From contig JAOTWM010000012.1 in assembly GCA_029862885.1 (NCBI GenBank), forward strand, positions 1 to 30,346: a stretch of DNA of 30,346 bases. Direction: 5' to 3'. Every line of letters starts with the position of its first letter. The stretch's first letter is position 1. The notes beneath the pieces were generated by a model that had not been told where the DNA came from, did no database searches, and worked only from the letters and a program-made list of their open reading frames with translations. The stretch comes from Gammaproteobacteria bacterium. GTDB taxonomy: Bacteria > Pseudomonadota > Gammaproteobacteria > Arenicellales > JAOTWM01. Positions 2 to 22,204 of the stretch are shown here, one piece after another. The translations under genes were made by a program, and so were the position numbers.

Positions 2-334
2 AAGGCAATCTCGGCAGCTGCCAAACAAGGTCAAGACGTGGCCCTTAGCGATGTGATCGATATGGACAGCGAATATGCTTCGCCCCTTTTGTGTGGCATA
101 GCGTCATCCTGGGGGAAGGATATTGATCTTGTTTCAACCGCCGATTTCGCCAGCGCCACTGGCGAGCTCGGCTTTCAGGCACTGAACGGCTATGGCAATC
201 TGGTTGCCGCATGGGGTGCGGGCGTTGCGGTGTCACTCAATACCCGCGTTGAGCGTATCGATTGGTCAGGTCATGGTGTGACGGTCGAGACGCCCAAAGG
301 AGCCATTGCGGGACACACGTGCGTATACCGGTAG
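2..334 (+). CDS. Flavin-containing amine oxidase-like protein, internal fragment. The 5' end is cut by the window edge and the reading frame stops where the IS21 terminal repeats begin.
   Basis: Frame is open from nt 2. The translation ...VSLNTRVERIDWSGHGVTVETPKGAIAG... resembles the substrate-domain stretch of Amino_oxidase-family enzymes. The stop at 332-334 lies at the start of the IS terminal-repeat zone, consistent with insertional truncation. Confidence 0.4.
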   Translation, partial: KAISAAAKQGQDVALSDVIDMDSEYASPLLCGIASSWGKDIDLVSTADFASATGELGFQALNGYGNLVAAWGAGVAVSLNTRVERIDWSGHGVTVETPKGAIAGHTCVYR

Positions 335-399
335 CTATGAACGCCGATTCTGGAGCATCGTGAACAGGTGATTGTGTAACGCATCGACGAGTTGAGTTT

Positions 400-1155
400 T
401 TAACTCAGGTGTTCACGATCAGTCAACTTGTTAAGTATTTTTGGCATAGATTCTCCTTTGAGTTGTAGTCTATGAGCGTTGTGCATTAATCGGTCGAGGA
501 TGGCGTCGGCGAGGGTGTTGTCACCGATGGTTGCATACCATTGATCAGTGGGGAGTTGGCTGAGCATCATGGTAGATGAGTGGCCATGTCGGTCATCCAT
601 GATCTCCATTAAATCGTGACGATGGGAGGTAGTGAGTGTTTCCAGTCCCCAATCATCGATGATTAATAATTGTATTTTGGCGATGCGGGTCAGAAGTTTG
701 TGGTAAGTGCCGTCGGCCTTGGCCTGGGTGAGTTCCAACATCAAGCGAGAGAGCCGGTAGTAACGCACGCTGATGCCGCGTAAACAGGCGTTGTGCCCGA
801 GTGCACAGGCGAGATAGGTTTTACCACTGCCACAGGGTCCGGTGATTAAGAGATTGTGGGCGCGTTGGATCCAATCCTCTTGAGCGAGCTGGGCGATGCG
901 TTTTTTAGTGATATTGCGCGCATGCTGATAGTCGATGTCCTGGATGGAGGCGGAGAGTTTAAAGCGGGCCTGACGGATGAGGCGTTGTTGTTTACGTTGT
1001 TCCCGGGTCAGGCATTCCTGTTCCAGCAACAGAGATAATCGCTCGACGAAGGTCAGTTCTTCATAGGTGCCGAGTTGTTCGAGCTGGGATGTGAGGGCAC
1101 TGGCCATGCCGGAGAGTTTGAGTTCACGTAGACGCTGGTTAAGTTGTGTATTCAT
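400..1155 (-). CDS. istB: IS21-family helper ATPase IstB
   Basis: Walker A GPCGSGKT and Walker B LLIIDD motifs. The gene lies immediately downstream of istA, typical of IstB. Confidence 0.9.
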   Translation of the reverse strand: MNTQLNQRLRELKLSGMASALTSQLEQLGTYEELTFVERLSLLLEQECLTREQRKQQRLIRQARFKLSASIQDIDYQHARNITKKRIAQLAQEDWIQRAHNLLITGPCGSGKTYLACALGHNACLRGISVRYYRLSRLMLELTQAKADGTYHKLLTRIAKIQLLIIDDWGLETLTTSHRHDLMEIMDDRHGHSSTMMLSQLPTDQWYATIGDNTLADAILDRLMHNAHRLQLKGESMPKILNKLTDREHLS

Positions 1156-1172
1156 AAGATTCAGATCCTGGT

Positions 1173-2714
1173 TTAGTGGAAGTTCCCGGGGCCGCGGATA
1201 TTGTCGTGGTCCTGGGGCAAGGTTGTGGTTAGGTTGATTTGTTCAGGCAATTGATCACGGTTGCTTTTCAAGATGGCTTTGATGTGTTTGAGGCGGTCGA
1301 GTTTTTCGCGATTGGCGAGGGCACAAGCACGGTTCAAACGCTGGGCCGGGTAGCTACGGCTGAGATTGAGTAATCCCAGGCAGACCCGATAAGCCTGTTC
1401 CGGATGGGGTTTGGATTGAAGATGTGCGGTGATCCAGATCAGACAATCGGGACCGATATCCCGGGCCCAGTTTTTTATTCTTCCCGGGGTCCATTGTTGG
1501 TGTTTTCGATGCCGTTTCGGCATGTGGTCGGGTTGAGTGGTGAAGCCTGGACGATAGCTGCGAGGATGAGAGGCAATCATTTTGTGCTGGAAATACAGGC
1601 TGATCAGGTGATCTGAGGCCTGTAGTTCCAGGGTTTCGCCCACCAACTGATGGGGGACGGAGTAGTGATGCAGTTCGTATTGGACGTGGTAATCGATATT
1701 GACCTTGACCGGTTTGATATCGACATAGCGGTAGGGATGAGGAGGCAACGGTTTTAGCGCGGGCTGGTCGAGTTGTTCGAAGGCCTGGCGGCGGTTGCCC
1801 GGCAGTTGTTTGAAGGGTTTGTGGTTGAGTTCATGGAGCAGAGCCTGGATACACTGATTGAGTTCGGCCAGGGAGAAGAAGGTGTGATGGCGCAGTCTAG
1901 CCAGTATCCAGCGCTCGACGATCTGCACCCCGGCTTCCACTTTGGCTTTGTCTTTGGGTTTAAAGGGTCGTGCCGGCACCACCGCCACTTGATAGTGTTC
2001 CGCCAGTTGCTGGTAGCTCGGATTCACATCGGGATCGTAGCGGCACGCTCGGGTGACGCCACCCTTTAAATTATCCGGCACCACGATCTCAGTCGAGCCG
2101 CCAAAGTACTGGAACGCCTGCACATGGCTTTGCAACCAGTCGGGCAAGGTTTGGGTTAGGGTGGCCTCGGCATAGGTGTAGTTGGAGGCGCCCAATACCG
2201 CCACAAAGACTTGCGCTTCCCGGATTTCGCCGGTACCCGAATGAATGATTGGGACGGTTTGTCCGGCATAGTCGACAAACAGCTTCTCACCGGCCTTGTG
2301 GGTTTGGCGCATGGAGCGCTTTTGCTTTTGCCGCCAATGCCGGTAGCGATCACAGAACTGGGAATAACTGTAACAGCGGTTGGGATACTGTTGGGTGTAT
2401 TCCTCCCATAACAGGAGTTTCGTAACCCCCTTACGTTTGAGTTCTTGGTGGATGCCTGGCCAATCCGGAACTTCAAAGCGACCGGAGATACGGGCGTCTG
2501 CATCGGGATAGAACAATCGGGCCAGTTTGTCGTCGCTGAGTTCCGGTGGCAGCGGCCAGCTGATTTCCAGCGCATCGGCTCTGGCCCGCAGTTTCTGGAT
2601 GGCGCCTACACTGAGCTTGGTGCTGGCCCGGATCTGGCGTATGGATAATCCGGCACTGTGCCGTAAACGTAATACATCTCGAATCTTTCGCATTGTGATT
2701 CTCTTGGTTGACAT
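1173..2714 (-). CDS. istA: IS21-family transposase IstA
   Basis: N-terminal HTH (TMRKIRDVLRL) and DDE-type catalytic core. The ATG at 2714 has GGAGAGG upstream; the ORF tracker's TTG at 2747 is less likely. The 3' end slightly overlaps istB. Confidence 0.88.
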   Translation of the reverse strand: MSTKRITMRKIRDVLRLRHSAGLSIRQIRASTKLSVGAIQKLRARADALEISWPLPPELSDDKLARLFYPDADARISGRFEVPDWPGIHQELKRKGVTKLLLWEEYTQQYPNRCYSYSQFCDRYRHWRQKQKRSMRQTHKAGEKLFVDYAGQTVPIIHSGTGEIREAQVFVAVLGASNYTYAEATLTQTLPDWLQSHVQAFQYFGGSTEIVVPDNLKGGVTRACRYDPDVNPSYQQLAEHYQVAVVPARPFKPKDKAKVEAGVQIVERWILARLRHHTFFSLAELNQCIQALLHELNHKPFKQLPGNRRQAFEQLDQPALKPLPPHPYRYVDIKPVKVNIDYHVQYELHHYSVPHQLVGETLELQASDHLISLYFQHKMIASHPRSYRPGFTTQPDHMPKRHRKHQQWTPGRIKNWARDIGPDCLIWITAHLQSKPHPEQAYRVCLGLLNLSRSYPAQRLNRACALANREKLDRLKHIKAILKSNRDQLPEQINLTTTLPQDHDNIRGPGNFH

Positions 2715-3109
2715 CGCCTCTCCAAAAAAAGTTGGAGAGGATATCAAATAGATTGAAAAACAATGCGTTACAAATCATTCCGGCTCATCGTGAACACCGA
2801 TTCCGGAAAAAACGGAAAAGTGTTCACGATGGACCGGAATCACTGTTCACACAAAACCGGAATCGGTGTTCACAATAAACCAGAATCACTGTTCACGCTC
2901 GGCCGGAATATGCACTAACTGTGGTAGGCATACACTTGACGTTTGCTGCCTCAAACCGAATGTCCGCAAAGTATTCCAGCCACATTTGCAAATTTCGACA
3001 TCCACATACTGCACGCGCGGTTTCCCACCGCCGACCAGGGCTTCTGATCCTGGCGCCAGAGTGTTCAGGTGTGTGGGCCCGGGATCTAACAAAGACGCTG
3101 ATATAGAAG

Positions 3110-6745: not shown

Positions 6746-6814
6746 TCTTCGGTCGGAATCGTTGCGTTGTGCCTAACCGACGTGTTCTCGACTCCTCCCG
6801 CACCGCCGGGAAAA

Positions 6815-7236
6815 GGGTCAGGTCTTGCAATCAAGCACCACCGCGATACACGTGGTGCGTGAGTCGACCGTTGCGTCTTGAGTTAGCGGGTGGTCTGTGC
6901 CAAATCGGCTCCCGCTGAGATCGTCGGGAAGATTTCTATCTAAATGACGCTGATCGTATCAAGTGGTTATTGCTATCGAGTCAGGTATGCCAACGCTTCA
7001 AATGGAGATGTCACGCGTACTGCCTGATGAGTAGTCGCTAACATATGGTAGTGGAAATGGTGGAAGGTTGTTTTTCGAATGGGATGCGCCGATTGAATAG
7101 GGTGTACACGCAGTATTTTATTTTAAAGTCAATTACTCGAGCGTGAGTCGAGCGCTAAAGAAAGCGGATTTGGGTGATGGATAGGCACCGGCATTGGTTG
7201 GGTTCGACTGATATGAGTGATTGCAAGACCTGACCC
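6815..7236. repeat. 422-bp element bounded by a perfect 19-bp inverted repeat, GGGTCAGGTCTTGCAATCA (6815-6833) and TGATTGCAAGACCTGACCC (7218-7236). MITE-like, non-coding.
   Basis: The perfect inverted repeat is read directly. The element has no credible ORF. A partial third match to the IR core (AGACCTGACCC) lies at 14733-14743. Confidence 0.5.
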
Positions 7237-7289
7237 TATTTCCTTTTTTCGTTGTTCATAGTATTTTGGTTGTTCATTGAGCTGCCGAG

Positions 7290-7442
7290 TCACGGCATCG
7301 AGCCGACACAAACAGCCGTTGGCGAGAGCGGTTCGGTACATATAGACTACCGGAGTTGGGGACCTCGCAGATCAGCACGGCCCCCTGGGTTCTTGGTGTT
7401 GCGGTATGGGGCCCAATTCATTCACGCCAATCTCATCAAACT
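7290..7442 (+). promoter_or_regulatory. Conserved ~140-nt element, copy A, ending 25 nt before the start codon of the Met/His-rich protein gene. Candidate cis-regulatory RNA or leader.
   Basis: About 70% identical to 10726-10880 (copy B). Both share tcacggcatcg, aacagYcgttggcgagag, ggagacctcRc, cccaattNatttcacgccaa. The terminal ttggcg/cgccaa can pair. Confidence 0.5.
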
Positions 7443-7454
7443 GGAGAAACAACC

Positions 7455-7871
7455 ATGAAAAAGATATATATATTAATCGTAACCGCATTTACGTTCGTAA
7501 TTGCATCTTCCGGATATACAGCTAATACCGAAGAGGAGGTATCGATGGACTCCTCATCGACTATGGAGATGAGCGAAGATATGTCGGGAATGATGGGCGG
7601 GATGCATCATAAAGGGGTGGAGCATCGGGGCATGATGGGTCATCACATGATGCATTCTGGCGTATCACCGGTAACCATCATGGTTCAACCCGGAATGATG
7701 CCGATGATGGGTCATGGCATGATGCACCGCGGAGAGAAGGGTGGTCATAAAGGGGGTGAAATGGGTCGGGGAAAAATGATGAAAGAACACATGGAACGCA
7801 TGGAGCAGCGGCTGAAAAATATCGAGGCATTGCTCAGTGAACTGGTAGAGCTGCAAAAAAAAGGCGAGTAG
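7455..7871 (+). CDS. Secreted Met/His-rich protein (PcoE/SilE-like composition) with a C-terminal coiled coil. Putative periplasmic Cu(I)/Ag(I)-binding protein.
   Basis: GGAGAAA Shine-Dalgarno 5 nt before the ATG. Signal peptide MKKIYILIVTAFTFVIASSGYTA. Mature part is dense in MxxM, HxxM and MMGHH motifs. The ORF tracker's upstream extension to 7356 only translates element A. Confidence 0.75.
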   Translation: MKKIYILIVTAFTFVIASSGYTANTEEEVSMDSSSTMEMSEDMSGMMGGMHHKGVEHRGMMGHHMMHSGVSPVTIMVQPGMMPMMGHGMMHRGEKGGHKGGEMGRGKMMKEHMERMEQRLKNIEALLSELVELQKKGE

Positions 7872-10320: not shown

Positions 10321-10422
10321 TTCTGCCAGAGGGTGCGGCGGTAGTTATCGGAACACGGACATCAAGCGACTTTGGCGGGAAATGGCGATTTAAAAACCAG
10401 GGCCAATGTCCGCAACGAGTAG

Positions 10423-10589
10423 AGACTGTGTGAAAACACAAAAAATAATGAGGCTGTTGGGACAGTGCTGCTTAATCTTCATCCGCGGAGACAACTTTTG
10501 CAGTTGAAGCTCCACTTATAACGTTAGAATTTAACAAGCGTGATCGTTATCCCCACCAACAATTTTGATCCTGCGTTTTCACACAGTCT
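10423..10589. mobile_element. MITE-like element copy 1 (167 bp) with terminal inverted repeat AGACTGTGTGAAAAC and a possible GAGTA target-site duplication.
   Basis: IRs at 10423-10437 and 10575-10589. A diverged second copy with the same IRs lies at 14274-14439. Confidence 0.6.
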
Positions 10590-10725
10590 GAGTATGAAGC
10601 GGAAGTTTTCCATGATAACTCAATTGGCCGCTTTTGGGGTTTTGAGACCCTCGCGAAGGTCAAAGTTAGGGTGCTATCGGGTGCCATGCTTCGTCAGAAA
10701 ACTCCGGGGTTTCGCGCGGTGGGAA

Positions 10726-10880
10726 TCACGGCATCGGTCTGAAAAAACAGTCGTTGGCGAGAGGGGTTGGCCATATATAGGTTATAAGATCTGGAGACCT
10801 CACGGATCGACGCAACCCCCCCCCCGGTCGCAGTGCTGTAGCATGGGACCCAATTGTATTTACGCCAAGCTCAAGAACGC
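10726..10880 (+). promoter_or_regulatory. Conserved ~140-nt element, copy B. It is an orphan; no + strand gene follows within 500 bp.
   Basis: Aligns with copy A (7290-7442) over its whole length, including about 12 nt beyond the cgccaa stem. Confidence 0.45.
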
Positions 10881-11403
10881 AGAAGCAGCGACGCAGCTCA
10901 AATTAGGCCGAACTCCGCCTGTCGCGACATCGCTTTTCTAGCCCGAATAATTCATGAAAGCATCTGATTTCAGGGGAAATCGGGCCAAGTAGTCGGTGCG
11001 ATCGTTTGTCCGATTTATAGCCGCAGCTATGGATCAAGGGGGATCGTGCCAAATATGACGCCCGATTTTTCTGAGTCCGAACAGGACATACCATATGCAG
11101 GCCCCGTGTCTTAACACACACGGTAACCGGTTCAAATATTGAAAAGAGTCCTGGTCCATCGTCGGCCTTGGTGAAATATCCGGGCTAGTCAACATATCAT
11201 TGCCGGGAATTTGATTTACTTTAATTGTACGTGTCGCGAACGGGACATTGAGGTCATGCAGTGCCGGACGCTCAGGTTGCCGAACCACGGTTCCAGCAAT
11301 ACCGCTTGCGTTAAGAAATGGAACAAATCACCATTAATACGATCTCATGCATAGAGTTCATACGAAGTATCATTCCACGGCTTAACGATCAGAAAACACG
11401 ACC

Positions 11404-12057
11404 ATGACCAAATCAACAATCAACCGGTTGCGCAGGAAACTGTTGACCCTAGTCGGCATAGTGGGTGTAGCCCCCCATTTGGCGTGGGCTGAAACACTGT
11501 TGCCGACACCACGACAATCGACTGGCCCTTTCTACCCCGAGCAACTGCCGTTGGACGACGACAACGACCTCACGCGAGTGGCAGGTCGAAACGGTTTGGC
11601 GAAGGGACAGAATACGGACCTGTCAGGTCGGATAGTAGACACAAACGGGCACCCCGTGACCGGCGTACGCATCGAAATATGGCAGTGCGATGCCAACGGT
11701 CGCTACCACCACCCGCGCGACAATCGGCAAGTGGTCCTGGATGACAATTTCCAAGGGCACGGCCACACCATCACCGACGCCGAAGGAAACTACCGATTCC
11801 GCACCATCCTGCCGGTTCAGTACCCTGGCCGCACGCCCCACATACACACAGCAGTGTTTCCGCTGGGGCATGACCCCTTAGTTACGCAGATCTACATCAA
11901 AGACGAACCGCGCAACGCCCAGGATTTTCTGTTCAATAGAATCCCCGTGGAGCGACGGCCGCTGGTCATGGCCGAATTTAAACCTACTAGCGGTGGGGAT
12001 ACTGAGTTCGTTGCCCATTTCAACCTGGTGATCGGTGCCACTCCGCAGCAGGCGTAA
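11404..12057 (+). CDS. Intradiol ring-cleavage dioxygenase-family protein with an N-terminal Tat/Sec-type signal
   Basis: RLRRKLLTLVGIVGV...AWA signal. Core GRIVD..G.PV.G..IEIWQCDA.GRY...YRFRTI.P..YPGR..HIH motifs, including the Tyr/His iron ligands. Confidence 0.75.
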   Translation: MTKSTINRLRRKLLTLVGIVGVAPHLAWAETLLPTPRQSTGPFYPEQLPLDDDNDLTRVAGRNGLAKGQNTDLSGRIVDTNGHPVTGVRIEIWQCDANGRYHHPRDNRQVVLDDNFQGHGHTITDAEGNYRFRTILPVQYPGRTPHIHTAVFPLGHDPLVTQIYIKDEPRNAQDFLFNRIPVERRPLVMAEFKPTSGGDTEFVAHFNLVIGATPQQA

Positions 12058-12292
12058 TCGTAATCTGGATCAGACTTCCGCTTTACCGTTAAAAGCAGCC
12101 GCTCCTCGGTTCTCTATATACAAGAGTCGCGAGGGGCCGCGTTCGACCCCAAGCAGTCATCTATCGTTTTACGATCTTAGTCCGTTCATTGCCCTGACCT
12201 GCCGTTCAGATAATCTCCCACGAGGGCAGTTCTCGGCCACAAGCGGACGTCGAATTGATTATGATATTCAGGACCGGCTATTCCTGCCGAGC

Positions 12293-12547
12293 CTATTCGT
12301 GCGTGTTCTGGAATCGTTTTCCGATATTACGCATGAAGTTGACCATCATCAGCATGGCGACCCCCATTACGATAAGGGTGATCGCTACAAGCCATACCAG
12401 GATCTGTGGATAAATAATGATGGTCACACCTAAGATAATGAAGACAACTCCGGGAATAATCATCCAGAACCTGGAGCCCGGCTTCTTTATCATTCCCTTG
12501 CATGTCTCTGCCATCGGGCACGTCGGCATTGGTACTGTCTCTGCCAT
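12293..12547 (-). CDS. Small two-TM membrane protein with an N-terminal CPMAETC motif
   Basis: GAAGGAG Shine-Dalgarno 6 nt upstream. Two hydrophobic helices. It is the last gene of the sigma-GST-AhpD operon. Confidence 0.65.
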   Translation of the reverse strand: MAETVPMPTCPMAETCKGMIKKPGSRFWMIIPGVVFIILGVTIIIYPQILVWLVAITLIVMGVAMLMMVNFMRNIGKRFQNTHE

Positions 12548-12593
12548 TGTTTTCTCCTTCTACTTTGAGGATCTCACTTGATTTCGCTGAGGT

Positions 12594-12815
12594 TTATTTC
12601 TCTATCGCGGTCTCGCCCAGAAGCTCGCGTGCTTTTTTGCGGATGGCGTTTTCGGCGCCACGGTTCACCATCAAACCCACCTTGACCGCTGCAGCAACCT
12701 CCTCGCGGTCAATTCCCAGCTCGTCGCACTTGGCGAGGTGGTGATCCATGCACGGATGGCAGTTCGCCGCTGCCGAAGCCCCCATGGCCACAAGCTCTTT
12801 CATATGTTCATTCAC
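12594..12815 (-). CDS. Carboxymuconolactone decarboxylase / AhpD-like family protein (CxxCxxxH)
   Basis: ANCHPCMDHH matches the AhpD C-x-x-C-x3-H active-site spacing. GTG start at 12815 with GAGGAG 7 nt upstream; the tracker's TTG at 12830 lies inside the Shine-Dalgarno. Confidence 0.65.
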   Translation of the reverse strand: MNEHMKELVAMGASAAANCHPCMDHHLAKCDELGIDREEVAAAVKVGLMVNRGAENAIRKKARELLGETAIEK

Positions 12816-12869
12816 TTTTGTTCTCCTCAATGATTGTCCGATTCAAACTTTGCTTAGTTCACACACTCT

Positions 12870-13583
12870 TTAACAGCAAGCGCAAGCGACCGATCGCTCG
12901 GTCGGACCGCAGCACGCCTGTCGAGCTTGGCCTTGCTCCGGGTGACCCAGGTAGGTCTCGTCGGACAGGTAGAAGTTGGTGAACTTCTCCACAAAATCTT
13001 CTGCGACGGATTTCTTCGGCAGACCTGTGGCGAGTACATTCTGCTGCCACGCTTTGACCTTCGGGAACTCGGCCAAGAAGTCATAACCAGAGTGCTGCTG
13101 AATGATGGCCGCACGGTGCAGCAACGGCAACCATGCAATATCAACCATGCCAACCTTATCCCCCCTGAAGAATCGACCGTCACTCAGTCTCTTTTCGGCG
13201 GTTGCGAATGCCTCATTCAGCTTGGCGCTGCGCTCCACAAACGTGACTTGATCGGGGCTCCTCTGCGTCGAGCACTGGACAAGGTAGTTCTTTGTGGCCA
13301 GGTATGACCACGCCCGCTCTCGAGCCTTCTCGACGGGATCAGCAGGGAACAGCGGATCTCCGGCAGTCTCCTCGATGTACTCTACGATGGCATCGGATTC
13401 GTGAAGCGCGCGACCATCGTCGGTTATCAGGACCGGTACCTGGCCCAGCGGTGATATCTCAAGGAACCAATCGGGCTTGTCGCTGATATCGATATCCTCG
13501 ACCTCGTAGGGGACGTTCTTGGCCTCAAGCAGGGCCGTGATCCGCTGGACGAAAGGGCAAATTCCAGAGCTGACGATTTTCAT
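12870..13583 (-). CDS. Glutathione S-transferase (CPF, Grx-like type) with a Cys-rich C-terminal tail ...QACCGPTERSVACACC
   Basis: AGGAG Shine-Dalgarno 7 nt upstream. N-terminal ICPFVQR...GQVPVL...ESDAIVEYI GST_N fold. Six cysteines lie in the last 16 residues. Confidence 0.8.
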   Translation of the reverse strand: MKIVSSGICPFVQRITALLEAKNVPYEVEDIDISDKPDWFLEISPLGQVPVLITDDGRALHESDAIVEYIEETAGDPLFPADPVEKARERAWSYLATKNYLVQCSTQRSPDQVTFVERSAKLNEAFATAEKRLSDGRFFRGDKVGMVDIAWLPLLHRAAIIQQHSGYDFLAEFPKVKAWQQNVLATGLPKKSVAEDFVEKFTNFYLSDETYLGHPEQGQARQACCGPTERSVACACC

Positions 13584-13646
13584 TCGGGATCTCCTGTTAG
13601 TCTCTACTAAGGGAGACGCGAGATACCTGAAAAAGACGCAGACTCG

Positions 13647-14204
13647 TCAGCAGCAGTCGTCGTCCTTGAGTTCGTAGGCGCTCAGGTTGCCCCTCGCATC
13701 AATCTCCAGGGCACAACACCTCTGATAGAGCTCTCTAAGCATTGCCCGACCCCGCTGGACGCGGGACTTCGCTGCTGAGTGACTTAATCCCAGTCTATCC
13801 GCCAATTCTGTCTGCGGCACATCATCAAGATCGACGGCCTGCACGGCGTCCCGGTACTTCTCGGGGAGCTGCGAAATGAAGGGCCGGATACAGTTACCCA
13901 GCTCCTGTCGGACCTCCTCGTATGCTTCCACATCGTCCTCGGGGGCCAGCAGGATATCGGGTAATGATGCCTCCGGTCGCGCTCGACGGTAGTAGTCATT
14001 CAGGGTGTTCCGGGCCACTTGGTATAACCAGGGACGGAACTTCGATGGCTCCCGAACATCGTTGATGTGCTGGTGGGACTTGATCAACACCTCCTGAACC
14101 AGGTCATCAACATCCGCGCCACGCGGTAACCGGGCATTGAGGAACTGCTTGATCCCTTGCCCGTATTCCGACCATATCGTTGCGACATCAGTTGTTGAGC
14201 CCAT
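13647..14204 (-). CDS. ECF (sigma-70 family) sigma factor with a C-terminal Cys-rich extension (CC-x19-CC), CorE/ECF44-like
   Basis: Region 2 (DLVQEVLIKSHQ...FRPWLYQVARNTLNDYYRR) and region 4 (ELADRLGLSHSAAKSRVQRGRAMLRE) are present. Tail QRCCALEIDARGNLSAYELKDDDCC. The tracker's ORF extends to 14465 but would read through the MITE, so the ATG at 14204 is chosen. Confidence 0.8.
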   Translation of the reverse strand: MGSTTDVATIWSEYGQGIKQFLNARLPRGADVDDLVQEVLIKSHQHINDVREPSKFRPWLYQVARNTLNDYYRRARPEASLPDILLAPEDDVEAYEEVRQELGNCIRPFISQLPEKYRDAVQAVDLDDVPQTELADRLGLSHSAAKSRVQRGRAMLRELYQRCCALEIDARGNLSAYELKDDDCC

Positions 14205-14273
14205 AATCCAATTTTCATCCCGCATGCATCTTGCTGTAAAGCGAGAAATCGGGTGCGGTAAACGTCCGCTCTG

Positions 14274-14439
14274 GGTCCAGACTGTGTGAAAACTCAGAAT
14301 TGGAAAAAACATTTGGGACAGCACAACAATATTAGTCATTAACCCTTTGGTTCTAGTTTCTCTGCCCCACAACTGCCTTATATAACTCGAAAAATGGGAT
14401 AGCGTGACATCATAAATAGTTTTCACACAGCCTGGGTCG
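14274..14439. mobile_element. MITE-like element copy 2 (about 166 bp), same IR family as 10423-10589. It is inserted 70 bp upstream of the ECF sigma factor start.
   Basis: IRs cagactgtgtgaaaac (14278-14293) and gttttcacacagcctg (14420-14435). Internal blocks ttgggacag and cttata.aac...agcgtga are shared with copy 1. Confidence 0.6.
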
Positions 14440-14825
14440 GTAGCCGCCTTGTACCACAGTGGCATGAATGACGGCTTCGAGTATATTGCAGCCCGTTACA
14501 ATCTCACAGCGAATGACTGCTAAGGAAAAAGAAGACGATCACGCGTTATGAAAAAAGGCCCGCTTCTTGCCCATAGCGGAAGAAACGCTGCGGTGCGGCG
14601 AACGGCTCTTCTCGGCTGCGGTTTCAACCGGTCGATGCAACACATTGGTTAAATTGTTCGCATTGGAGAAGCAGACATTTTGAGGGCGCATGAATTTGCC
14701 TCCCTGATGCTAACCGGGCATTTCTAAATTCCAGACCTGACCCATTAAGCCACAATCACATTAAGCTGAACGAAATCCTTTTCCTTACCCGTTGTGAATA
14801 AAGCGAGTTATTTGGAGTTCTTTGA

Positions 14826-16690: not shown

Positions 16691-16978
16691 CTTGAACCAG
16701 GAGCACGACTTTACCGTCCAAATCCAATGACATACATAGTTATAGAATTGACCGCTGTGAGTATACAGCGGAAGTATACAAAGTTATCAGAAATGGCCGC
16801 TTTTGAGGTTATTGGAAACTTGTTTGTTGTCTGGTCAATTTAGAACATAACTTTTGTTCTGCTAGATCAAGTTACAACCTTTACACTTAATTTGCCTAAA
16901 TTCGTAGCATCTCTTAATGCATGCCGTACTTTCAACTAGTGGCTGTACGTTCCTTTATCCGCTACGTCGAGAGCTTGT

Positions 16979-22130: not shown

Positions 22131-22204
22131 AGCGAGATAGCTCAGCTAGGTAGAGCAACCGACTCATAATCGGTCCGTCGCAGGTTCAACTCCTGCTCTC
22201 AATT
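22131..22204 (+). tRNA. tRNA-Met(CAT)-like sequence. The D, anticodon and T arms are canonical, but the 3' acceptor strand pairs at only 5 of 7 positions. Probable pseudo-tRNA or att-site-modified tRNA.
   Basis: TAGCTCAGCTAGGTAGAGC D-arm. Anticodon stem ACCGA/TCGGT with loop CTCATAA. T-arm GCAGG TTCAACT CCTGC. Acceptor 5' AGCGAGA versus 3' TCTCAAT, with no encoded CCA. Confidence 0.55.

What the first reader, a model, noticed from the sequence alone, without database searches (positions are those of the whole stretch)
10423..14439. A two-copy MITE family (about 166 bp, IR AGACTGTGTGAAAAC), with one copy in the promoter region of the ECF sigma factor
Copies at 10423-10589 and 14274-14439 share 15-20-bp terminal inverted repeats and internal blocks (ttgggacag, cttata.aac, agcgtga) but are diverged in between. 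This is consistent with an old, mobile non-autonomous family. Copy 1 may be flanked by GAGTA direct repeats. Copy 2 sits 70 bp upstream of the CorE-like sigma factor ATG. It must either carry or displace that operon's promoter, which gives it a plausible regulatory impact.
Basis: seen in the sequence. Interest (0 to 1): 0.6.

Follow-up and report, generated by a model that had tools for sequence, protein, structure and literature searches.

The report
Two IS1182-type miniature transposons (MITEs)
The two short repeats are real non-coding miniature transposons derived from a well-known insertion-sequence family (IS1182); one of them landed recently just upstream of a sigma-factor gene but appears to leave that gene's own promoter intact, so the finding is genuine but ordinary.

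Summary
Both elements exist. Refined limits are c1 10422-10590 (169 bp, 4-bp target duplication AGTA) and c2 14278-14434 (157 bp, duplication GGTC). Each ends in SAGRCTGTGTGAAAAC.

They are not a private two-copy family. The same termini, about 150 bp apart, occur in more than 120 loci across many bacterial phyla, and identical 4-bp duplications flank 89 of 120 of them.

Full-length insertion sequences with these termini, the same 4-bp duplication and the same target preference encode IS1182-family transposases. Examples are a Nitrospira MAG, ISPa7-like copies on plasmids, and ISPye18 of Paracoccus yeei. IS1182-derived MITEs of 159, 160 and 169 bp with 4-bp repeats are already published.

A metagenome contig with a 99%-identical sigma factor lacks exactly 161 bp (element plus one GACC), so c2 is a recent, polymorphic insertion. 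The 73 bp between c2 and the sigma ATG is conserved in an 86% orthologue that also lacks the insert. The native promoter therefore most likely lies downstream of the insertion and was not displaced.

Both copies sit in the loop or centre of small palindromes. An uninterrupted paralogue of c1's target lies at 16748-16813.

Verdict: a new member of a known kind, of low to moderate interest.

The parts
10422..10590 (.). MITE copy 1 (169 bp, long length class). It has no ORF with any family hit.
   Evidence: Terminal repeats found. Boundaries follow the 4-bp duplication rule. The ORF at 10540-10941 has no Pfam hit.
10422..10437 (+). c1 left terminal inverted repeat, GAGACTGTGTGAAAAC
10575..10590 (-). 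c1 right terminal inverted repeat (reverse complement CAGACTGTGTGAAAAC)
10418..10421 (.). c1 target-site duplication AGTA, left copy
10591..10594 (.). c1 target-site duplication AGTA, right copy
14278..14434 (.). MITE copy 2 (157 bp). It is absent from a near-identical metagenome allele.
   Evidence: Sequence. L124 lacks exactly 161 bp, which is 157 bp plus one 4-bp duplication.
14278..14293 (+). c2 left terminal inverted repeat, CAGACTGTGTGAAAAC
14419..14434 (-). c2 right terminal inverted repeat (reverse complement CAGGCTGTGTGAAAAC)
14274..14277 (.). c2 target-site duplication GGTC, left copy
14435..14438 (.). c2 target-site duplication GGTC, right copy
16748..16813 (+). Uninterrupted paralogue of c1's target: a 66-nt repeat unit. 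Its hairpin CCGCTGTG-AGTA-TACAGCGG has the AGTA loop intact.
   Evidence: Window sequence. The site reconstructed without c1 aligns at 49/66 across the insertion point, and the hairpin folds at -8.1 kcal/mol as DNA. This is repeat D3.
13647..14204 (-). ECF sigma factor gene (SigZ-type, Cys-rich C-terminus), 73 nt downstream of c2
   Evidence: Pfam Sigma70_r2 and r4_2. NCBIfam TIGR02959 SigZ scores 186.7 against a cut-off of 168.65. The start is fixed by conservation with L125.
14211..14240 (-). Conserved sigma-70-like promoter candidate, TTTACA-N18-GAAAAT, lying between c2 and the sigma ATG
   Evidence: Consensus scan. Both hexamers are identical in the orthologue L125. This is inference, not a mapped promoter.

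Best explanation
c1 and c2 are two non-autonomous miniature inverted-repeat transposable elements (MITEs) derived from the ISPa7/ISPye18-like branch of the IS1182 family of insertion sequences. They keep only the 16-bp terminal inverted repeats (SAGRCTGTGTGAAAAC) that the family's DDE transposase recognises. In the long class there is also a subterminal [GT]TGG motif about 35 bp from the tip.

A transposase supplied in trans by a full-length IS1182-type element would cut them out and insert them with a 4-bp staggered cut, which produces the 4-bp target duplication. Insertion is aimed at the centre or loop of small palindromes of the form GNCNGC-N~5-[4 bp, often GGYC]-N~5-GCNGNC.

The two window copies arose from different master copies. 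c2 inserted recently, and the population is still polymorphic for it. It lies 73 nt upstream of the ATG of a SigZ-type ECF sigma factor gene, just distal to the conserved promoter-proximal region. Its most likely effect on that gene is therefore small: insulation from upstream read-through or upstream sites, plus a long RNA hairpin if it is transcribed.

Shown: element structure, target duplication, empty allele, autonomous partners elsewhere, and target preference.
Inferred: mobilisation in trans in this organism, and absence of a strong regulatory effect.
For: - The terminal repeats are far above chance.
- 122 elements in 120 loci from diverse phyla carry the same termini. Identical 4-bp flanks occur at offset 4 in 89/120 of them.
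- A full-length element in L002 (2601-4385) has GAGGGTGTGTGAAAAC...GTTTTCACACGGCCTC and a GACC duplication. It sits in tandem with a MITE in the same target. Its 478-aa protein scores 459 bits on NCBIfam IS1182 (cut-off 270).
- Annotated IS1182 or ISPa7-family transposase genes on Pseudomonas, Variovorax, Ralstonia and Sinorhizobium plasmids are bounded by the same repeats. GGCC or GGTC duplications flank three of the four; the Ralstonia copy has GGTC on one side and GACC on the other.
- ISPye18 on P. yeei plasmid 4 has CAGACCGTGTGAAAAC, a 15/16 match to the window repeat.
- Published IS1182-derived MITEs match in size and duplication: MITEPye1, 159 bp with 4-bp repeats (PMC11578231), and 160- and 169-bp MITEs with 4-bp repeats in M. 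acetivorans (PMC3852290).
- The empty allele L124 (sigma 99% identical) lacks exactly 161 bp, and its proximal flank matches at 127/128. The 86% orthologue L125 is also empty.
- Target palindrome: a flank logo, the folding of reconstructed sites, and the uninterrupted paralogue of c1's target.
- There is no Rfam family at either element.
Against: - No IS1182-type transposase gene lies in the 30-kb window or in the related contigs, so a resident source of transposase is not shown.
- 31 of 120 related elements lack identical 4-bp flanks, through decay or recombination.
- c1 has no empty allele in the data, only a paralogous uninterrupted site.
- Hairpin formation at reconstructed targets is only modestly stronger than at random segments (mean -5.3 versus -4.7 kcal/mol, P = 0.015).
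- Promoter statements rest on conservation and a consensus scan, not on mapped transcription starts.
Confidence: 0.93

Rival explanations
1. The two copies are part of a segmental duplication rather than independent insertions.
For: Short similarity extends a little beyond the repeats: D7 and D12, at 77-81% over about 15-20 nt.
Against: That extra similarity is the shared target-palindrome motif, which is seen around unrelated copies in many phyla. The two duplications differ (AGTA versus GGTC). The interiors are unrelated. The neighbouring genes differ. c2 is precisely absent from L124.
Confidence: 0.01
2. The elements are host REP/BIME-type palindromic units or a structured small-RNA gene, and the termini are a conserved stem rather than transposase sites.
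For: Both fold into long hairpins as RNA: -52.8 kcal/mol (z = -3.6) and -47.7 kcal/mol (z = -2.4). Both sit in intergenic DNA.
Against: - Only the 16-bp termini are conserved. The interiors fall into 66 clusters that show no similarity to one another.
- 4-bp target duplications are present.
- The same termini bound full-length IS1182 elements.
- There is a presence/absence polymorphism.
- Rfam gives no hit.
- A hairpin is expected from any inverted-repeat element.
Confidence: 0.03
3. c2 is a functional regulatory insertion that changes expression of the SigZ-type sigma operon. It could act by blocking read-through from the upstream DUF4389 and 50-aa genes, by removing upstream sites, or by creating a new promoter. 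On this view it is maintained by selection.
For: - c2 lies about 38 bp upstream of the candidate -35.
- The upstream genes are on the same strand.
- The terminal repeat contains TTCACA, a 5/6 match to a -35 hexamer, facing outward (read from the sequence).
- The insertion is polymorphic in nature.
Against: - No -10 lies at the right distance from the outward TTCACA. Seventeen nucleotides downstream is GGACGT, and the scan reports no such promoter.
- The promoter-proximal 73 bp is intact and conserved.
- In the orthologue L125 the DNA upstream of the insertion point is unrelated, so nothing conserved was displaced.
- No terminator-like T-run follows the hairpin.
Confidence: 0.15

Closest known systems
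MITEPye1 of Paracoccus yeei (ISfinder; Front Microbiol 2024, PMC11578231)
   Same: It is a non-coding element of 159 bp, which is the modal size of the superfamily found here. It has 4-bp direct repeats and an intergenic location, and its terminal repeats resemble those of the IS1182-family element ISPye18. ISPye18's own end, read here, is CAGACCGTGTGAAAAC, a 15/16 match to the window repeat.
   Different: The MITEPye1 sequence itself was not available, so direct identity was not tested. The window copies are 169 and 157 bp. Their interiors resemble none of the 122 other elements examined. They come from an uncultured organism.
IS1182-family insertion sequences of the ISPa7 / ISPye18 / ISPse1 type
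   Same: They share the 16-bp terminal repeat, the 4-bp duplication (commonly GGCC or GGTC) and the same flanking target motif. ISPse1 is 1653 bp with 16/16 inverted repeats and a 4-bp duplication (PMC3281130).
   Different: Those elements are 1.65-1.8 kb and encode a transposase of about 478 aa. The window elements carry no transposase and are about a tenth of that size.
IS1182-derived MITEs of Methanosarcina acetivorans (partner ISMac2; Kamoun et al. 2013, PMC3852290)
   Same: Sizes of 160 and 169 bp, a 4-bp duplication for the 160-bp element, and an IS1182 partner. The sizes fall in the same length classes seen here.
   Different: The host is an archaeon and the inverted repeats are 25-26 bp. 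Their sequences were not compared here.
IS1397 / ISKpn1 (IS3 family), which insert into REP/BIME loops
   Same: From my own knowledge: these elements also insert preferentially into the loop of small repeated palindromes, with a 3-4-bp duplication.
   Different: They belong to a different IS family with different termini (TG...CA), and they are autonomous elements.

Membership tests
MITE (miniature inverted-repeat transposable element) | Small size (tens to a few hundred bp) with no transposase gene | tested here: met
   The copies are 169 and 157 bp. The only overlapping ORFs have no family hit, or are an artificial 5' extension of the sigma gene.
MITE (miniature inverted-repeat transposable element) | Terminal inverted repeats | tested here: met
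   16-bp repeats, matching at 15/16 within each copy.
MITE (miniature inverted-repeat transposable element) | Target-site duplication of fixed length | tested here: met
   4 bp: AGTA and GGTC in the window, and 89/120 identical in related loci.
MITE (miniature inverted-repeat transposable element) | Evidence of insertion: filled versus empty site | tested here: met
   L124 lacks exactly the element plus one duplication copy. For c1 there is only a paralogous uninterrupted target.
MITE (miniature inverted-repeat transposable element) | An autonomous element with matching termini | tested here: met
   L002 IS, ISPa7-like and other plasmid copies, and ISPye18.
IS1182-family derivative | Termini match those of elements whose transposase passes the IS1182 model | tested here: met
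   NCBIfam NF033551 scores 459 bits against a cut-off of 270 for the L002 transposase. RefSeq annotation reads 'IS1182 family' or 'ISPa7 family' for L141-L145.
IS1182-family derivative | 4-bp direct repeats, as reported for IS1182 members | tested here: met
   Literature values come from PMC3281130 and PMC11578231.
IS1182-family derivative | A compatible transposase present in the same genome | not testable with these tools
   Only metagenome contigs of up to about 30 kb are available, and none carries an IS1182 transposase.
MITEPye1 (same named element) | Sequence identity to the ISfinder entry | not testable with these tools
   The sequence is not in the paper text or the held supplements. 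Only the size, the duplication and the ISPye18 terminal-repeat match could be checked.
Segmental duplication | Similarity continuing into the flanks, with shared junctions | tested here: not met
Known structured RNA family (Rfam) | A match at the gathering score | tested here: not met
   The only hit in the window is a tRNA at 22131-22204.
CorE-like ECF sigma factor (neighbouring gene) | ECF sigma domains plus a C-terminal Cys-rich metal-sensing extension | tested here: inconclusive
   Sigma70_r2 and r4_2 are present. NCBIfam calls the protein SigZ. The C-terminus contains ...RCCALE...DDDCC. No comparison with CorE itself was run.

The most novel reading that the evidence does not exclude
IS1182/ISPa7-type MITEs may form a single superfamily spanning most bacterial phyla and perhaps archaea. 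Its members keep only 16-bp tips, yet they are held to three discrete lengths, about 149, 159 and 170 bp, one helical turn apart. Their interiors carry AA/TT periodicity of about 11 bp.

This would mean that an element shorter than the persistence length of DNA must be intrinsically bent and helically phased for its two ends to synapse. The superfamily also aims at the loops of small palindromes.

The window copies, at 169 and 157 bp, would be two examples. A secondary possibility is that the polymorphic c2 insertion tunes the SigZ-type sigma operon.
Probability: 0.3. Interest if true: 0.55.

Novelty: new member of a known kind. Interest (0 to 1): 0.3.

Why it matters
For this window the value is mainly practical.
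- It explains two intergenic repeats.
- It corrects a gene model. Gene callers extend the sigma factor to 272 aa by reading through the MITE.
- It shows that the sigma promoter region is probably untouched.
- It provides a natural filled/empty pair of alleles for testing any regulatory effect.

More generally, one short scan showed that this terminal-repeat type is extremely widespread, has a palindrome-loop target preference, and comes in quantised sizes. If that holds up, it says something about how very short transposons are synapsed.

Tried and rejected
- Literature search for the repeat sequence itself returned only unrelated primer hits.
- Rfam at gathering thresholds found nothing at the elements.
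- I first read the flanks as 5-bp repeats offset by one base, and then as G-U-paired RNA stems. Both readings were dropped once the 4-bp rule emerged from 120 loci.
- I looked for an empty allele of c1 through exact-protein look-ups of both neighbouring genes. Only contigs of the same genotype carrying c1 were returned. One further contig (L140) ends about 520 bp past the GST-like gene and was not checked for c1.
- Global alignment of the c1 and c2 interiors gave no similarity above shuffles.
- The MITEPye1 sequence was sought in the paper's supplements and not found. A first guess at a P. yeei plasmid accession failed.
- I checked MITE pairs that flank DNA segments (L041, L013) for obvious cargo. 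Nothing informative appeared and I did not pursue it.
- An ECF-type promoter reading (GGAC...N17...) upstream of the sigma gene was considered. It was rejected because the would-be -10 is not conserved in L125, whereas TTTACA-N18-GAAAAT is conserved.
Full report
**Observation.** Reading the two stretches shows inverted termini in both. AGACTGTGTGAAAAC, allowing up to three mismatches, occurs four times in the window. The four matches form two inverted pairs, at 10423/10575 and 14279/14419. Dinucleotide-preserving shuffles give 0.44 matches on average, and none of 100 reached four. The repeat finder reports the same arms (I8, I20, D7, D12).

**Scale of the family.** One scan of 185,579 species genomes used the pattern CTGTGTGAAAAC-N{112,142}-GTTTTCACACAG. 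The hosts include Pseudomonas, Bradyrhizobium, Microvirga, Methylobacterium, Acidovorax, Rhodanobacter, Nitrospira, Nitrosomonas, Ignavibacteria, Verrucomicrobiota, Acidobacteriota, Calditrichota, Zetaproteobacteria and Francisellaceae. This is not a private two-copy family.

**Element limits and target duplication.** In the 122 elements extracted from these loci, three further positions outside the 12-nt core are nearly fixed (A-G-R), and the fourth is C or G. If the element is taken to end at that fourth base, the 4 nt immediately outside are identical on the two sides in 89 of 120 cases. Every other offset and length combination gives 0-6 identical pairs.

- The family therefore has the terminal repeat SAGRCTGTGTGAAAAC and a 4-bp target-site duplication.
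- In the window, c1 is 10422-10590 (169 bp) with AGTA at 10418-21 and 10591-94.
- c2 is 14278-14434 (157 bp) with GGTC at 14274-77 and 14435-38.

**Autonomous partner.** A search of the fetched loci for unpaired termini found a full-length element in a Nitrospira MAG (L002, 2601-4385). It begins GAGGGTGTGTGAAAAC, ends GTTTTCACACGGCCTC, and is flanked by GACC on both sides. It sits directly beside a MITE in the same GACC target. Its 478-aa ORF scores 459 bits on the NCBIfam IS1182-family transposase model, against a cut-off of 270. It also carries DUF772 and DDE_Tnp_1/DDE_Tnp_1_6 domains.

A tblastn search of annotated plasmids found relatives at 64-65% identity, annotated 'IS1182-like element ISPa7 family transposase' or 'IS1182 family transposase'. 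I inspected four of them, from Pseudomonas, Variovorax, Ralstonia and Sinorhizobium. All four are bounded by the same repeat type, and three carry GGCC or GGTC duplications; the Ralstonia copy has GGTC on one side and GACC on the other. One example is GGCC|CAGACCGTGTAAAAAC...GTTTTTACACGGTCTG|GGCC.

The IS1182-family element on P. yeei FDAARGOS_252 plasmid 4 is described in the literature as an intact ISPye18. It begins CAGACCGTGTGAAAAC, which matches the window repeat at 15 of 16 positions.

**What is already published.**
- MITEPye1 of P. yeei is 159 bp, has 4-bp direct repeats, and has 18-bp terminal repeats resembling ISPye18 of the IS1182 family (PMC11578231).
- IS1182-derived MITEs of 160 and 169 bp, with ISMac2 as partner, were reported in Methanosarcina acetivorans; the 160-bp one has a 4-bp duplication (PMC3852290).
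- ISPse1 (IS1182 family) is 1653 bp, with 16/16 inverted repeats and a 4-bp duplication (PMC3281130).

The kind of element is therefore known. The window holds two new members.

**Proof of insertion for c2.** A metagenome scan with the sigma-factor protein returned two useful loci: L124 (99% identical protein) and L125 (86%). Neither contains the repeat. The alignment shows that L124 lacks exactly 161 bp relative to the window, which is the 157-bp element plus one GACC. Its proximal flank matches at 127/128. c2 is thus a precise insertion that is polymorphic among near-identical genotypes. Because the more distant orthologue is also empty, the empty state is ancestral.

**Consequences for the sigma factor.** The gene is on the minus strand, and gene callers annotate a 272-aa product that reads through the MITE. 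The sigma domains start near residue 99 of that product. The real start is the ATG at 14204, supported by conservation with L125, whose ORF cannot extend further upstream.

The 73 nt between c2 and this ATG are 60/77 identical to L125, and they contain an invariant TTTACA-N18-GAAAAT (minus strand, 14240-14211). Sequence distal to the insertion point is unrelated between the window and L125 (61/172). I infer that the native promoter lies downstream of the insertion and was neither displaced nor replaced.

The terminal repeat does contain an outward TTCACA, but no -10 follows at a workable distance, and no terminator-like T-run follows the hairpin. If transcribed from the upstream same-strand genes, c2 would fold into a long hairpin (-52.8 kcal/mol, z = -3.6). 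Any regulatory effect remains conjecture. NCBIfam names the protein SigZ-type (186.7 bits against a cut-off of 168.65). The 'CorE-like' label was not tested.

**Target preference.** The flanks of the 118 elements with complete flanks show a weak palindromic logo: G.C.G.t...ggcc on the left and its complement on the right. Reconstructed empty sites tend to pair positions about 5-8 nt on either side of the duplication. Their folding energy is only modestly below that of random segments (-5.3 versus -4.7 kcal/mol, P = 0.015).

- In L125 the c2 site is a perfect hairpin: GACGTCC-gct-GGTC-caaatt-GGACGTC.
- For c1, removing the element and one AGTA gives a sequence that aligns at 49/66 with an uninterrupted paralogue at 16748-16813. 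The alignment crosses the insertion point, and the paralogue's hairpin CCGCTGTG-AGTA-TACAGCGG folds at -8.1 kcal/mol as DNA.
- In Pseudomonas loci the element sits against typical REP sequence, such as ...TGTGGGAGCGA....

**Relationship between c1 and c2.** Their interiors are 51% identical, against a shuffle mean of 53 +/- 2.6%. BLAST links neither of them to each other or to any of the other 122 elements. They do share TTGGGACAG at offset 35, as does L094, a MAG labelled Proteobacteria bacterium Bpl_19. L094's copy also has an AGTA duplication and similar flanking repeats. A [GT]TGG motif at offset 34-35 is typical of the long length class. The two copies are thus separate members of one superfamily, not recent copies of one another.

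**Side observation on length.**
- Total lengths cluster at about 149, 159 and 170 bp. Only 2 of 124 fall outside these three classes.
- A Rayleigh statistic on lengths peaks at R = 0.73 for a period of 11 bp.
- Each class contains 19-30 clusters that share no interior similarity.
- The interiors show an AA/TT periodicity peak at 11 bp, about 2.8 times that of random segments from the same loci.
- The published archaeal MITEs (160 and 169 bp) fall in the same classes.
- This suggests a helical-phasing constraint on synapsis of such short elements.
I report it as a lead only.

**Rivals.** A segmental duplication is excluded by the different duplications, unrelated interiors and flanks, and the empty allele. 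A REP unit or small-RNA gene is unlikely, because only the tips are conserved, target duplications exist, the tips bound full-length IS elements, and Rfam is silent.

**Verdict.** The repeats are real, correctly recognised as MITEs, and now assigned to the IS1182 family (ISPa7/ISPye18 type). The 'two-copy family' and 'promoter displaced' parts of the interpretation do not hold. This is a new member of a known kind, of low to moderate interest.

Noticed in passing
window 330-2910: An IS21-family insertion sequence. istA (1173-2747, minus strand) scores 308.6 bits on the NCBIfam IS21 model, and istB (400-1155, minus strand) scores 264.3 bits. Both ends carry multiple 23-bp terminal repeats (GTGTTCAC...CCGGAAT; D1, I1, I4, I6).
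   Followed up: partly
window 6808-7243: A 26-nt inverted repeat, 92% complementary (GGGAAAAGGGTCAGGTCTTGCAATCA), encloses 384 bp. It may be a second, unrelated MITE-like element, just upstream of the Met/His-rich protein gene.
   Followed up: no
window 7287-7385 and 10723-10820: A repeat of about 100 bp (72-76% identity; D2 and D15). One copy lies directly upstream of the Met/His-rich secreted protein gene (7452-7871). The other lies in the 1-kb intergenic region downstream of c1. It could be a shared promoter or leader, possibly a regulon signature.
   Followed up: no
window 10407-10421 + 10595-10645, 16748-16813; L094 6263-6293: A small repeat unit of about 66 nt that contains the AGTA-loop hairpin c1 inserted into. 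Part of it (GTTTYCCATGATAAC) also occurs beside the MITE in the Bpl_19 MAG (L094), which suggests a related host or a shared REP-like family.
   Followed up: partly
window 13647-14465 (minus strand): Public gene calls give the sigma factor as 272 aa, because an upstream in-frame ATG reads straight through MITE c2. The supported protein is 185 aa, starting at 14204.
   Followed up: yes
122 elements in L001-L120: Element lengths are quantised at about 149, 159 and 170 bp across 66 unrelated interior clusters. The interiors show an 11-bp AA/TT periodicity, which may reflect a helical-phasing constraint on synapsis.
   Followed up: partly
L002 2450-4389: A MITE and a full-length IS1182 element sit head to tail in one target. 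GACC is present three times, at the left, the junction and the right. This points to repeated use of the same hotspot.
   Followed up: partly
L041 3744-5680; L013 1963-5197; L095; L097: Pairs or clusters of MITE copies, often in inverted orientation, bracket 1.6-3 kb of DNA. These may be MITE-bounded composite units. The ORFs between them were not informative.
   Followed up: partly
window 12870-14204 (minus strand): The sigma factor ends in a Cys-rich tail (...RCCALE...DDDCC), and the downstream GST-like protein ends in CCGPTERSVACACC. A CMD-family gene follows. Together they could form a thiol- or metal-sensing module.
   Followed up: no
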